A DNA stretch of 64,000 nt from a phage, in assembly GCA_026209155.1 (NCBI GenBank), contig GCA_026209155.1_3056.1; one strand, written 5' to 3'. This document shows, piece after piece, positions 18,300 to 60,381 of the stretch. The stretch's first letter is position 1; the number at the start of each line of letters is the position of its first letter. The notes beneath the pieces are model-generated. The model saw only the letters and a program-made list of their open reading frames with translations. It made no database searches and was not told where the DNA came from. Both the position numbers and the translations under genes were made by a program.

Positions 18300-18304
18300 A
18301 TTGA

Positions 18305-18330
18305 GGGAGCCTTCGGGTTCCCTTTTTCTT
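18305..18330 (+). terminator. Hairpin with UUCG loop plus U-tract after gene 35
   Basis: GGGAGCC-UUCG-GGUUCCC followed by TTTTTCTT. Confidence 0.6.
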
Positions 18331-56672: not shown

Positions 56673-59369
56673 TCAGCCAAACAGGAAGTCTAACGAAGCT
56701 TTTTCTTCATAGTCCATACCAGCCGATTCACACATACCCGCAAGCGGTTTAACAAACGATTTTTGGAACAAAGTTGAGTAGTCAATCCAAGACAGTACAT
56801 CAGAACGAATTTCTTTTGGAAGTTCTGTGCCCGACGGCCAAGCAATGCACTTGTCACCAAATGGATTTCCTTCACGCAATGGAAGAACCATTACCTTATT
56901 TCCATCCAAAATTGGAGCTACACCTAAACCGCTAACAGCTCGACGATAAGTTAGCACACCACGAATATGGAACGGGCATTTAAATCCTGGCCAACCTTTA
57001 TCATCATATTTCGCTATATCGTTCGCAGTTTTTACTTCAGCAATAACTTTATAGTCAAGTTGACGATATTCTTTCTCGAAGTTCTTGTAATATTCTTGGA
57101 CAGACTCTTCACCTTCCTGAAGAATACGACGAATACTTTCTTCGAGAGCTTCTTGCACTGCCTTTGGTGTTGAACTCTGCTGAGTTTCCATACCCATGAT
57201 TTTTAGATGCGGTTCAGCAAATCGCTTATCTTCCATATCATAAACGTTCAGAGCATAACGCTTTTTCGCTTTCCAAAATCCACCAACGCCCTTTGAACCA
57301 AGCGGAGGGCAAGAAATAGCTTCACGGTCCATATGCATCAGATGCTCGCGGTTATTCATATAATCACATAACTCACGATATGCAACATCAATCATAGGTT
57401 CCATCTTTTTCTTACCGAACTGATTCATGAATTCAACTAAATCGTTCTGCTCTTTGAATCGGTCAAGACCAACTTTTTCAATAACTTTATCTACACAAAC
57501 ATATACCGAATCAGTATCACCTGCTGCAATGAAATCTTCACCATTAGTTCCGCATACTTTATTCAGATATTCATTAATTTTACGAGCAATCCACTGAATA
57601 CCAACTTGGCCGAAAATTGTGATAGCAGTAGCATTTCGCAAATCATAGTAACGGAAATGAATATTACCAAGAGCACCATAAAGACTGTTAATAAGAATTT
57701 TACGGTTCAGCTGATTTGTGTTAGCAAGTGTAGCCGCTTTTTCGCATTCCTCAATCAGACTATTGAGAACAGATTCAGTATAATTCGATAGTTCATTTAA
57801 GAAATCATCACTGAACTTAACATATCGTTCAACTTCTGGTTTAGTTGAACAGGACCCTGCGCCTTTCATAATAATCTTTTTAATAGCTTCGGCATTCATT
57901 TCTTCAGCGAACATTTTCTTTTTCCAATCTTTACGCTGGAAAAATACTTTAGCGATTTCCTTTGGAATGATACCTTCTTGATGCTTATCATACATCCATC
58001 CATTCGGAGAACAAGAATATTCATCACTCGGTTTAGGAGCTGTTCCTGCGATATATTCATGAATTGGATGAACTTTAAACTGCCCACGAATAGTCTCAGG
58101 ACTAATGTTAACCTGACGAATAATGCTCGGATACAGAGACGTCAAGTCAAAACTCATAATATATCGACGAGCAATTGGTTTAGGTTCAAATACAAATGCA
58201 CCCGGAAAACTTTGTTTAACGTGCGAACCTTGTTGAGGAATAACCTTGTGTTCACCTTTCAATGAGTTAAAAATAATAGCATCCCAAGTTTTAATAGGAC
58301 TCATTACACCAGAAAAAGGCATTTTAGCGTAATAAGACATACTTAAAACTAGATCGATAAACCCGCGAATTTTATCAATTGCTTGAACTGATTCTACGTC
58401 AATGATGTTATAACTAATGTATCGTTGATGATTAGTCTCACGAAGTTTATTAATAGGACCGTCGTATGGTAATTTACCTTTTTTGGTTTCATGTTGAGCA
58501 ACTGATTCCAAAGAGAATGACGGCAAATTAGTAAAAGCGAATTTCTTGTACAAATCTAAATAATCAAGAATAGATACGCCATCAATAGAATAAATTTCTT
58601 TGCTACCGTACATATTTTGAATTAGTTTAGATTTTACTCGACCGATTGGAGAGAAGCGTTTCATACTGCGTTCGCCCAGAACCATTTTAACACGATTCAT
58701 GATATACGGAACGTCAAATCCCTCAATATTCCAGCCGGTAAAAATAGCAGGTCTTTTCTGTTCCCAGAGATTAATATATTCCATGAGCATATCACGCTCA
58801 TTATCAAATGGCATATAAATTACTCGGTCAAGAATTTCTTGAGGAACTTCATCACCACCTTCACAGTCAAGCTTAGCAGCTAACTTTGCATCCCATTTTG
58901 ATACTGAACCATACATTGAATTCAAAAGGTCGAAAACATAAAAACGATCGTCAATTGAATCATAATGAGTGATAGCATCAATTTCATATTCTGCTTTCAT
59001 TGGGTCAGGAAATTTATCACCAGTAACCTCAATGTCACAGTTAGCTACACGAACAAATTTTCGGTCATAAACAATTTCTGAACCATACGTATCACTGATA
59101 TAAGCGAGTTTAAAATCGTTCATACCGAGAGCTTCGAGACCGATGTCTTCCATTCGCTTCATCCAATCTCGAGCATCTTTCATTGATGGAAATTTTTGAG
59201 GAGCGCAGTTTTTACCATAAATGTCTTTGTATTTTGACTCTTCCTTACAATGCCTAAACATAGTTGGAAGATATTCTACTTCACGAGTACGTTCCTTTCC
59301 GTTTTCATCAATATAACGTTCAACAATGTTATTTCCGACTGTTTCAATAGAGATATAAAATTCTTTCAT
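56673..59369 (-). CDS. 43: DNA polymerase gp43 (family B)
   Basis: 898 aa, identical length to T4 gp43; exo and pol motifs (FDIE, YGDTDS). Confidence 0.95.
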   Translation of the reverse strand: MKEFYISIETVGNNIVERYIDENGKERTREVEYLPTMFRHCKEESKYKDIYGKNCAPQKFPSMKDARDWMKRMEDIGLEALGMNDFKLAYISDTYGSEIVYDRKFVRVANCDIEVTGDKFPDPMKAEYEIDAITHYDSIDDRFYVFDLLNSMYGSVSKWDAKLAAKLDCEGGDEVPQEILDRVIYMPFDNERDMLMEYINLWEQKRPAIFTGWNIEGFDVPYIMNRVKMVLGERSMKRFSPIGRVKSKLIQNMYGSKEIYSIDGVSILDYLDLYKKFAFTNLPSFSLESVAQHETKKGKLPYDGPINKLRETNHQRYISYNIIDVESVQAIDKIRGFIDLVLSMSYYAKMPFSGVMSPIKTWDAIIFNSLKGEHKVIPQQGSHVKQSFPGAFVFEPKPIARRYIMSFDLTSLYPSIIRQVNISPETIRGQFKVHPIHEYIAGTAPKPSDEYSCSPNGWMYDKHQEGIIPKEIAKVFFQRKDWKKKMFAEEMNAEAIKKIIMKGAGSCSTKPEVERYVKFSDDFLNELSNYTESVLNSLIEECEKAATLANTNQLNRKILINSLYGALGNIHFRYYDLRNATAITIFGQVGIQWIARKINEYLNKVCGTNGEDFIAAGDTDSVYVCVDKVIEKVGLDRFKEQNDLVEFMNQFGKKKMEPMIDVAYRELCDYMNNREHLMHMDREAISCPPLGSKGVGGFWKAKKRYALNVYDMEDKRFAEPHLKIMGMETQQSSTPKAVQEALEESIRRILQEGEESVQEYYKNFEKEYRQLDYKVIAEVKTANDIAKYDDKGWPGFKCPFHIRGVLTYRRAVSGLGVAPILDGNKVMVLPLREGNPFGDKCIAWPSGTELPKEIRSDVLSWIDYSTLFQKSFVKPLAGMCESAGMDYEEKASLDFLFG

Positions 59370-59386
59370 AGATATTCCTTAGTTTA

Positions 59387-59406
59387 TAGCCCGAGTTATT
59401 AGGCTC
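59387..59406 (-). promoter_or_regulatory. gp43 translational operator hairpin (5-bp stem, loop AAUAACUC) next to the Shine-Dalgarno
   Basis: Minus-strand GAGCC-UAAUAACUC-GGGCU then AUAAACUAAGGAAUAUCUAUG. Confidence 0.65.
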
Positions 59407-59420
59407 TTGATATATTATAC

Positions 59421-59446
59421 TCCAAATAAGGGGCCGAAGCCCCTTG
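59421..59446 (-). terminator. CUUCGG hairpin terminator/stabiliser downstream of regA
   Basis: Minus-strand AAGGGGC-UUCG-GCCCCUU followed by AUUUGG; -10-like TATAAT follows. Confidence 0.55.
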
Positions 59447-59447
59447 C

Positions 59448-59816
59448 TTAATTACCAATCGTATATTTAGGAACGAGTTTCCATTCATGTTTTTGCTTAA
59501 AAGAAATAACTCGGAAGTTATTAGTTAAATCTTTCATAAAAGTTCTTTGACCGGGAGCGATTTCAATCAGTCCCCAATCTTCTAACAGCCATGCAATCGA
59601 ATCACGACGAACTTCATCTTCTTCTGTCATTTCAACCTGGCGACCATCCATACGAAGCATTTCTTTAAAATGAACGATATAGTATAGTCCTTTTTTCTGG
59701 AGAATATGGCAGGATTGATACAGAACTTTATCTTTATTATTAGCAATTCCCATACGAGTCAGAGTTTCTTTAACTTTCAGAAAATCTTCAGGTTTTTTAA
59801 GAGTAATTTCAATCAT
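59448..59816 (-). CDS. regA: Translational repressor RegA
   Basis: 122 aa as in T4 RegA; N-terminus MIEITLKKPEDFLKVKETLTRMGIANNKDKVLYQSCHILQKKGLYYIVHFKEM. Confidence 0.9.
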   Translation of the reverse strand: MIEITLKKPEDFLKVKETLTRMGIANNKDKVLYQSCHILQKKGLYYIVHFKEMLRMDGRQVEMTEEDEVRRDSIAWLLEDWGLIEIAPGQRTFMKDLTNNFRVISFKQKHEWKLVPKYTIGN

Positions 59817-59817
59817 T

Positions 59818-60381
59818 TTACCATTCCAATGCTAGTTTTTTGAGTTGTTTCTGTTCTTTTACATTCTTAGTCACTTCTTTCAAAAAATCATCCGTGACTA
59901 AACCTTTTAGTTCTTTTAATACTAAAGGAAGTTTTCCATTTTTAGTAAGAATTGATTTATAGTTAATTGCATCGTTTGTATTAACTTGATACCGCTTAGC
60001 AAGTAACTTAATAATCAATACTTCAGTAGAATCTTCGACCAGTTTTGCCCATTTACCATATCTTTTACCCCGAGGAACAGCAGCCATCAGATAATTAAAA
60101 TGGGCTTCATCGCTTAAACCTGATCCAATTAAATTCATAGCATATACAGCTGGCATGCACTCAGGAAATTGTGATAATGCATTCTCAACCATGTATTTTG
60201 AATAATCTTTTTGAGCAATAGAGCATTTAGTTTTATTATTGATAGCCCCAATTATTTCAAAAAATTCATTTTCAGCTTTTTCCTTAAAAGAATCAGCAGC
60301 AGATTGGACAGCTGTCCAATCTTTTGAATACCAAGCAACTTGATGCTCGTTTAATTGAATATCATCTTCAAATAAGCTCAT
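59818..60381 (-). CDS. 62: Clamp loader small subunit gp62 (187 aa from internal Met MSLFEDD; track ORF to 60402)
   Basis: Position between regA and 44; length matches T4 gp62. Confidence 0.8.

What the first reader, a model, noticed from the sequence alone, without database searches (positions are those of the whole stretch)
59387..59446. gp43 translational operator hairpin preceded by a regA-terminator hairpin
Upstream of the gene 43 ATG the minus strand reads GGAGUAUAAUAUAUCAAGAGCCUAAUAACUCGGGCUAUAAACUAAGGAAUAUCUAUG. The GAGCC/GGGCU stem with loop UAAUAACUC matches the known autogenous operator bound by T4 DNA polymerase. The CUUCGG terminator of regA and a TATAAT element lie just upstream, giving a compact control region.
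Basis: partly seen in the sequence, partly recalled or inferred. Interest (0 to 1): 0.4.

Follow-up and report, generated by a model that had tools for sequence, protein, structure and literature searches.

The report
Known T4 DNA polymerase translational operator
This is the textbook RNA hairpin through which phage T4 DNA polymerase shuts off its own translation, present base-for-base in a close T4 relative, so it is real but already known.

Summary
The window comes from a T4-like phage (Tequatrovirus). The 78-nt spacer between regA (59448-59816, minus strand) and gene 43 (56673-59369, minus strand) is 78/78 identical to the T4 reference genome. The flanking genes are 96-98% identical. The spacer therefore carries the experimentally characterised gene 43 autogenous translational operator.

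The real helix is AGCCU/GGGCU (5 bp, 59405-59401 with 59392-59388). The loop is the 8-nt AAUAACUC (59400-59393), the loop randomised in the first SELEX experiment. The operator also continues 3' through the Shine-Dalgarno AAGGA (59380-59376), outside the stated coordinates.

Across 11 leaders from 10 Tevenvirinae genera the hairpin covaries: 95.7% of cells pair and 3 of 5 pairs show compensatory changes.

The TATAAT (59419-59414) is the -10 of the mapped MotA-dependent middle promoter P43. Its start site lies about 59409, 3-4 nt before the hairpin.

The upstream C(UUCG)G hairpin (59445-59428) is also strongly conserved (100% paired, 6 of 7 pairs compensatory). Its role as a terminator is only predicted. 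In relatives it follows whichever ORF sits upstream of gene 43, not regA specifically.

Verdict: already known, low interest.

The parts
59448..59816 (-). regA (translational repressor, 122 aa), the gene upstream of the control region; stop codon TAA at 59450-59448
   Evidence: ORF list. Pfam PF01818 Translat_reg, E = 1.5e-74. 96.2% nt identity and 1 aa difference to T4 regA.
59428..59445 (-). C(UUCG)G tetraloop hairpin AAGGGGC-UUCG-GCCCCUU (7 bp), followed by AUUUGG. Putative intrinsic terminator or 3'-end-protecting hairpin of the upstream transcription unit. Its DNA also carries a MotA-box-like GCTT (59440-59437).
   Evidence: Folded alone: -12.1 kcal/mol, pair probability ~1.0. Covariation in 10 genera: 100% paired, 6/7 pairs with compensatory changes, 0/500 shuffles reach the score. 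Annotated as a rho-independent terminator by others. Not called by the local scan.
59413..59423 (-). GGAGUAUAAUA, a candidate RegB endoribonuclease site (consensus GGAGRAYARAA) that overlaps the -10 element. It would be present only on read-through transcripts.
   Evidence: Sequence. Consensus from PMC1702504: 9/11 match, with the tolerated U at position 5. A review states that RegB processing stimulates gp43 synthesis. Cleavage at this particular site was not verified.
59414..59419 (-). TATAAT, the sigma-70 -10 element of the MotA-dependent middle promoter P43
   Evidence: Annotated '-10 region (g43)' in T4 record X00769 at the equivalent position. A predicted middle promoter in phage fPS-65 spans the equivalent of 59440-59414. 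P43 is listed among the mapped T4 middle promoters.
59407..59409 (-). Approximate transcription start of P43, 38-40 nt upstream of the A of the AUG
   Evidence: P43 start site is T4 coordinate 29933 (PMC2988021 Table 1). Gene 43 ATG is at T4 29893. The sequence is identical, so 29933 maps to window 59409.
59388..59405 (-). gp43 operator hairpin: stem AGCCU (59405-59401) / GGGCU (59392-59388), loop AAUAACUC (59400-59393)
   Evidence: MFE and pair probabilities. Identical to T4. Covariation: 95.7% paired, 3/5 pairs compensatory, slid registers at most 43% paired. RNAalifold finds the same register. An 18-nt hairpin with an 8-nt loop is what the literature reports.
59370..59387 (-). Single-stranded 3' part of the operator, AUAAACUAAGGAAUAUCU, including the Shine-Dalgarno AAGGA (59380-59376)
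   Evidence: UAAACUAAGGAA is nearly invariant in the 18-nt-hairpin class. A review states that the operator includes sequence overlapping the ribosome binding site. The Shine-Dalgarno sequence is annotated in X00769.
56673..59369 (-). Gene 43, family-B DNA polymerase (898 aa). It is both the regulated gene and the repressor protein.
   Evidence: ORF. Pfam DNA_pol_B and DNA_pol_B_exo1. 98.0% nt identity and 3 aa differences to T4 gp43.

Best explanation
This is the gene 43 control region of a T4-type phage, identical to that of T4.

Mechanism known for the identical T4 sequence: free DNA polymerase (gp43) that is not engaged on primer-template DNA binds its own mRNA leader. It recognises the 18-nt hairpin (5-bp stem, loop AAUAACUC) together with the adjacent single-stranded stretch that runs into the Shine-Dalgarno sequence. 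Binding blocks ribosome access, so polymerase synthesis is held to the level that replication needs.

Shown here: sequence identity to T4, the fold, the covariation of both hairpins, and the positions of the elements relative to each other.

Taken from the literature: gp43 binding, translational repression, and the P43 start site. The message is made mainly from the MotA/AsiA-dependent middle promoter P43, whose -10 is the TATAAT. It starts 3-4 nt before the hairpin, so the operator hairpin is the 5' end of that mRNA.

Inferred: the upstream C(UUCG)G hairpin closes and/or protects the 3' end of the preceding 45-44-62-regA transcripts, acting as a weak intrinsic terminator. Read-through transcripts carry a RegB-type GGAG site between the two hairpins that could release a gene 43 message.
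For: - Spacer plus flanks 96/96 identical to T4 NC_000866.4.
- Gene order 44-62-regA-43, supported by Pfam.
- More than 400 phage records are at least 99% identical over 141 nt.
- The hairpin folds with pair probabilities of 0.90 or higher, both in the P43-length leader and in the read-through leader.
- Operator hairpin covariation across 10 genera: 95.7% paired, 3/5 pairs compensatory, score 0.473 against 0.192 for shuffles (0/500), slid registers at most 43% paired. RNAalifold gives the same register.
- The loop is invariant except at position 4 (A/U/C).
- The Uzan & Miller review describes the operator, the 18-nt (T4) versus 16-nt (RB69) hairpins and the UAAC loop. Gold 2015 gives the 8-nt loop and its overlap with the ribosome binding site.
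- P43 start site at T4 29933, with gene 43 coordinates.
- UUCG hairpin covariation: 100% paired, 6/7 pairs compensatory. Others annotate it as a terminator.
Against: - No binding or repression was or could be measured for this phage. Its gp43 differs from T4 gp43 at 3 residues.
- Single-sequence thermodynamics are unremarkable (z = -1.02).
- The terminator role is weak on sequence grounds. The tail after the full stem is AUUUGGAG and the local scanner does not call it.
- The MotA-box-like GCTT lies 15 bp from the -10 rather than the consensus 12 +/- 1.
- Whether the GGAG here is cut by RegB was not found in the papers I could read.
Confidence: 0.93

Rival explanations
1. The upstream C(UUCG)G hairpin is not a transcription terminator. 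It would instead be a stability or processing element that blocks 3' exonucleases after cleavage, for example by RegB at the adjacent GGAG. It could also matter mainly at the DNA level, as the MotA-box region of P43.
For: - The weak U-tract is not called by the terminator scan.
- GCTT, the core of the MotA box, lies inside the hairpin. In phage fPS-65 the predicted middle promoter begins at exactly this GCTT.
- A GGAG with 9/11 match to the RegB consensus follows immediately.
- CTTCGG hairpins are generally over-represented in the window, 29 observed against 13.2 expected.
Against: - Six of 7 stem pairs covary while pairing is kept at 100%. This indicates selection on an RNA or single-strand structure, not on a DNA protein-binding sequence.
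- In Jiaodavirus, Karamvirus and Gelderlandvirus the hairpin lies 27-32 nt from the -10, too far to serve as the MotA box.
- A short U-rich run follows the hairpin in every genus examined.
- TransTermHP/WebGeSTer call it a terminator.
Confidence: 0.3
2. The 18-nt hairpin acts mainly as a 5'-terminal stabiliser of the P43 mRNA, protecting it from RNase E or 5'-end-dependent decay. On this reading gp43 binding would be secondary in this phage.
For: The mapped P43 start is only 3-4 nt upstream of the stem, a position where 5' hairpins are known to stabilise E. coli mRNAs (general knowledge). Stem covariation is equally expected under this reading.
Against: - A pure stabiliser would not need an invariant loop. 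The loop AAU-N-ACUC and the 3' flank UAAACUAAGGAA are conserved across genera whose stems vary.
- All 6 natural T4-type leaders found in IMG/VR keep the exact loop.
- The identical T4 RNA is a documented gp43 ligand.
Confidence: 0.05
3. The hairpin is a chance 5-bp inverted repeat in AT-rich spacer DNA and has no function.
For: The short stem gives only -5.2 kcal/mol alone. Regional folding is no better than shuffles.
Against: - Identity to the experimentally defined T4 operator.
- Compensatory changes in 3 of 5 pairs across 10 genera.
- The spacer shows zero substitutions while the flanking genes differ by 2-4%.
Confidence: 0.01

Closest known systems
Bacteriophage T4 gene 43 autogenous translational operator (Andrake et al. 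1988; Tuerk et al. 1990; the SELEX target of Tuerk & Gold 1990)
   Same: Everything that can be read from sequence is the same. The 78-nt regA-43 spacer is 78/78 identical, with the same hairpin, loop AAUAACUC, Shine-Dalgarno sequence, spacing to the AUG, and P43 -10.
   Different: Nothing in the RNA differs. The host genome is not T4 itself: regA is 96.2%, gene 62 is 96.3% and gene 43 is 98.0% identical, with 3 aa changes in gp43. The closest record over 701 nt is Salmonella phage F13076 at 99.1%.
RB69-type gene 43 operator (Mosigvirus; also seen here in Marfavirus and Tegunavirus)
   Same: The same position in the gene 43 leader. The same loop AAU(A/U)ACUC closed by a pair to G. Autogenous repression by gp43 is reported for RB69.
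   Different: A 4-bp stem AGAC/GUCU gives a 16-nt hairpin, and the hairpin abuts the Shine-Dalgarno sequence without the UAUAAACU spacer. The literature reports a different RNA-binding specificity for the two polymerases.
T4 gene 32 autogenous translational operator
   Same: A replication protein represses translation of its own mRNA when it is in excess over its DNA ligand. RNA binding and DNA binding are mutually exclusive.
   Different: The gene 32 operator is a 5' pseudoknot plus an unstructured A/U-rich tract that is bound cooperatively. The gene 43 operator is a simple hairpin with no evidence of a pseudoknot.
C(UUCG)G hairpins of T4 intercistronic regions (Tuerk et al. 1988, cited from memory)
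   Same: A GC-rich stem capped by the UUCG tetraloop in an intergenic spacer on the coding strand. The motif is over-represented in this window.
   Different: This copy is superimposed on the upstream part of promoter P43 and is followed by a GGAG. Its function (terminator or stabiliser) was not established here.

Membership tests
T4-type gp43 translational operator | Lies in the 5' leader of the phage family-B DNA polymerase gene (gene 43), downstream of regA | tested here: met
   ORFs and Pfam assignments. Same gene order as T4.
T4-type gp43 translational operator | Hairpin with a 5-bp stem and the 8-nt loop AAUAACUC (18 nt in all) | tested here: met
   Fold and pair probabilities. Identical to T4. 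Literature description.
T4-type gp43 translational operator | The helix is under selection, shown by compensatory substitutions in relatives | tested here: met
   95.7% paired, 3/5 pairs with changes on both sides, 0/500 shuffles reach the covariation score, slid registers at most 43% paired. RNAalifold gives the same register.
T4-type gp43 translational operator | A single-stranded 3' extension that overlaps the Shine-Dalgarno sequence | tested here: met
   The segment 59387-59370 is unpaired in the P43-length fold. UAAACUAAGGAA is conserved. The requirement is stated in the review.
T4-type gp43 translational operator | Specific binding by the cognate gp43, and translational repression in vivo | not testable with these tools
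   Documented for the identical T4 RNA. This phage's gp43 differs from T4 gp43 at 3 of 898 residues.
MotA-dependent middle promoter (P43) | A strong sigma-70 -10 element, TAtaaT | tested here: met
   TATAAT at 59419-59414. Annotated as the gene 43 -10 in T4.
MotA-dependent middle promoter (P43) | A MotA box (a/t)(a/t)(a/t)TGCTTtA positioned 12 +/- 1 bp upstream of the -10 | tested here: inconclusive
   AGGGGCTTCG (59444-59435) keeps the GCTT core but matches only about 6/10 positions and lies 15 bp from the -10. The review notes that MotA tolerates deviant boxes.
MotA-dependent middle promoter (P43) | An experimentally mapped, MotA-dependent start site | not testable with these tools
   The literature lists the P43 start at T4 29933, which maps to window ~59409 by identity. 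Gene 43 expression is reported to be highly MotA-dependent.
Intrinsic (rho-independent) terminator | A stable GC-rich hairpin | tested here: met
   7-bp stem with a UUCG loop, -12.1 kcal/mol.
Intrinsic (rho-independent) terminator | A U-tract immediately 3' of the stem | tested here: inconclusive
   After the full stem the tail is AUUUGGAG (3 U). Counted from the GC core it is UUAUUUGG (5 U of 8). The local scan makes no call. TransTermHP/WebGeSTer do call it in a relative.
Intrinsic (rho-independent) terminator | RNA 3' ends form at the site | not testable with these tools
   The primary mapping paper (Hsu & Karam 1990, cited) is not held in the library.
RegB endoribonuclease site | An 11-nt single-stranded GGAGRAYARAA in an intergenic region | tested here: inconclusive
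   GGAGUAUAAUA matches 9/11, with U at position 5 tolerated and U at position 10 rare. It is partly paired in the MFE fold of the read-through leader. Cleavage at this site was not documented in the papers I could read.

The most novel reading that the evidence does not exclude
The block formed by the UUCG hairpin, the GGAG and the TATAAT is a multiply overlapping module conserved across genera. It would combine a 3'-end hairpin, a MotA-box core, a RegB site and the -10 within about 32 nt. This module stays fused to the gene 43 operator, while the slot between regA and the hairpin acts as a hot spot that has accepted at least three unrelated small ORF families in different genera. The hairpin would then mark the true boundary of the gene 43 regulatory cassette rather than the end of regA.
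Probability: 0.35. Interest if true: 0.2.

Novelty: already known. Interest (0 to 1): 0.06.

Why it matters
It matters mainly as a calibration point. The scan correctly rediscovered one of the classic RNA-protein regulatory sites: autogenous control of T4 DNA polymerase, the RNA on which SELEX was invented. Nothing new about the operator is learned from this window. The comparative data gathered here are a minor addition: formal covariation support for both hairpins across about 10 Tevenvirinae genera, two hairpin classes (18 nt and 16 nt), an invariant loop apart from position 4, and no natural occurrence of the SELEX variant loop among the T4-type leaders sampled.

Tried and rejected
- **Rfam.** A permissive E-value scan of 58800-60200 found no family for either hairpin, only chance snoRNA, CRISPR and sRNA hits below their thresholds.
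- **Promoter and terminator consensus scan.** It called neither P43 nor the UUCG hairpin. P43 has no -35 because it is MotA-dependent, and the hairpin has a weak U-tract.
- **Full-text search for AAUAACUC.** It returned only unrelated siRNA and miRNA papers. A search for T4 cappable-seq or terminator mapping found nothing.
- **Primary papers not held in the library.** Petrov & Karam 2002, Miller et al. 2003, Trojanowska 1984 and Yeh 1998 could not be read. Footprint limits and termination data could therefore not be checked at source.
- **IMG/VR scan with AGCCT-N8-GGGCTATAAAC.** This looked for natural loop variants, including the SELEX major variant. It gave 17 hits: 6 true gene 43 leaders, all with AATAACTC, and 11 in unrelated contexts.
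- **Motif search in more distant leaders.** The T4-type loop motif was not found in Krischvirus MIZ3, an Acinetobacter phage, Pseudotevenvirus PF-CE2, Pectobacterium POP12 or Aeromonas ZHF. I did not pursue whether these have a different operator.
- **Possible second gp43 site in the window.** Rejected: of 6 AATNACTCG matches, only one lies in a hairpin.

Full report
**What is in the sequence**

On the minus strand, the 122-aa regA ORF (59816-59448, stop TAA at 59450-59448) is followed by a 78-nt spacer (59447-59370). Next comes the ATG (59369) of an 898-aa ORF. Pfam identifies the two ORFs as the phage translational regulator RegA (E = 1.5e-74) and a family-B DNA polymerase. The clamp-loader genes 62 and 44 lie upstream.

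The coordinates given (59387-59446) include the CUUCGG hairpin and the second hairpin. They stop short of the Shine-Dalgarno sequence and the AUG.

**Source**

A 701-nt query matches 625 phage records, nearly all Tequatrovirus. The best is Salmonella phage F13076 at 99.1%, and T4 itself scores about 97%. The window is therefore a T4 relative and not T4. Against T4 NC_000866.4, regA is 96.2% identical, gene 62 is 96.3% and gene 43 is 98.0% (3 aa changes). The 78-nt spacer has no difference at all. Over a 141-nt query centred on the spacer, 410 records are at least 99% identical.

**Structure of the operator**

The MFE fold pairs 59405-59401 (AGCCU) with 59392-59388 (GGGCU) around the 8-nt loop AAUAACUC (59400-59393). 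Pair probabilities are 0.90-0.997, both in an RNA starting at the P43 start site and in a read-through RNA starting at the regA stop.

The literature describes an 18-nt hairpin with an 8-nt loop (PMC3014915; PMC4661202).

Thermodynamics alone would not single out this region (z = -1.02; hairpin alone -5.2 kcal/mol).

**Comparative test**

I collected gene 43 leaders from Tequatro-, Mosig-, Jiaoda-, Karam-, Moon-, Winkler-, Muldoon-, Gelderland-, Marfa- and Tegunavirus (folded). All have a hairpin at the same place with loop AAU(A/U/C)ACUC.

On an 11-sequence alignment the five T4 pairs are 95.7% paired. Three of the five show changes on both sides (for example C-G to A-U to U-A at the third pair). 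The covariation score is 0.473 against 0.192 +/- 0.047 for shuffles (0/500). All registers slid by 1-3 columns drop to 18-43% paired. RNAalifold independently recovers the three loop-proximal pairs in the same register.

There are two classes. One is an 18-nt hairpin followed by (A/C)UAAAC(U/A)AAGGAA. The other is a 16-nt hairpin (AGAC/GUCU) that abuts the Shine-Dalgarno sequence in Mosig-, Marfa- and Tegunavirus. This matches the published T4 versus RB69 difference.

The motif was not found in the Krischvirus, Acinetobacter, Pseudotevenvirus, Pectobacterium or Aeromonas leaders sampled.

An IMG/VR scan that left the loop free found six T4-type leaders, all with the wild-type loop. The SELEX major variant did not appear.

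**Promoter**

TATAAT (59419-59414) is the element annotated '-10 region (g43)' in the original T4 record. It is also the 3' end of a predicted middle promoter in phage fPS-65.

Hinton's review lists P43 among the mapped MotA-dependent middle promoters, with its start at T4 29933. Gene 43 starts at T4 29893. By identity this places the start at about window 59409, 3-4 nt before the hairpin. The operator hairpin is therefore the 5' end of the P43 mRNA.

The MotA-box core GCTT (59440-59437) lies inside the UUCG hairpin DNA. It is 15 bp from the -10 rather than the consensus 12 +/- 1. I leave the exact MotA contacts open.

**Upstream hairpin**

AAGGGGC-UUCG-GCCCCUU (59445-59428) folds at -12.1 kcal/mol. 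In ten genera the equivalent hairpin is 100% paired, with 6 of 7 pairs showing compensatory changes. It is therefore a selected structure.

Its function as a terminator is not established here. The local scan does not call it. TransTermHP/WebGeSTer do call it in a relative's annotation. A short U-rich run follows it in all genera. I could not read the primary transcript-mapping paper.

In fPS-65, Moon, fGh-Ecl01 and ValerieMcCarty01 a small ORF sits between regA and the hairpin. The hairpin therefore belongs to the boundary in front of gene 43 rather than to regA as such.

Between the two hairpins, GGAGUAUAAUA matches the RegB/S1 consensus GGAGRAYARAA at 9/11 positions. A review states that RegB processing stimulates gp43 synthesis. 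Cleavage at this particular site is an inference.

**Mechanism**

For the identical T4 RNA it is established that gp43 binds the hairpin plus the adjacent sequence overlapping the ribosome binding site and represses its own translation. RNA binding and DNA binding are mutually exclusive. By sequence identity, and with a near-identical polymerase, the same mechanism is the best explanation here (confidence about 0.93).

Binding and repression themselves were not and cannot be tested with these tools.

**Verdict**

The feature is already known. Interest is low.

Noticed in passing
window, whole; for example 61394-61373(-), 52565-52546(-), 47028-47007(-), 36630-36613(-), 31349-31332(-), 31120-31103(-), 28456-28441(-), 18303-18324(+): CTTCGG is over-represented: 29 copies against 13.2 +/- 4.2 expected, and no shuffle reached 29. 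About a dozen copies cap stems of 5-9 bp, mostly on the coding (minus) strand. One sits at the gene 45/44 junction. This looks like the known T4 habit of using C(UUCG)G hairpins in intercistronic regions.
   Followed up: partly
L002:755-976, L007:179-403, L009:201-362, L010:165-365 (relatives; absent from the window between 59447 and 59446): Many relatives carry a 53-74 aa ORF of unknown function inserted exactly between the regA stop and the UUCG hairpin. The ORFs belong to three different PHROG families (phrog_3826, phrog_24729, phrog_19562). This suggests a recurrent insertion slot.
   Followed up: partly
L001:755-775 (T4 record X00769) versus window 59445-59428: The 1984 T4 sequence record lacks two G residues in the 5' arm of the UUCG hairpin. 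The T4 reference genome and all other relatives have them. This is most likely a gel-compression sequencing error at this very stable hairpin.
   Followed up: yes
window 59370-59447 versus flanks 56673-60381: The non-coding spacer is 78/78 identical to T4, while the flanking coding sequences differ by 2-4% (regA 14/369, gene 62 21/564, gene 43 53/2697). The control region is at least as constrained as the proteins around it.
   Followed up: yes
L020:300-400 (Krischvirus MIZ3), L015, L018, L019, L021: More distant T4-like phages (RB49-like, Acinetobacter, Pseudotevenvirus, Pectobacterium, Aeromonas) lack the AAUNACUC hairpin in their gene 43 leaders. In PF-CE2 the upstream ORF even overlaps the gene 43 start. 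Whether they use another operator or none was not examined.
   Followed up: no
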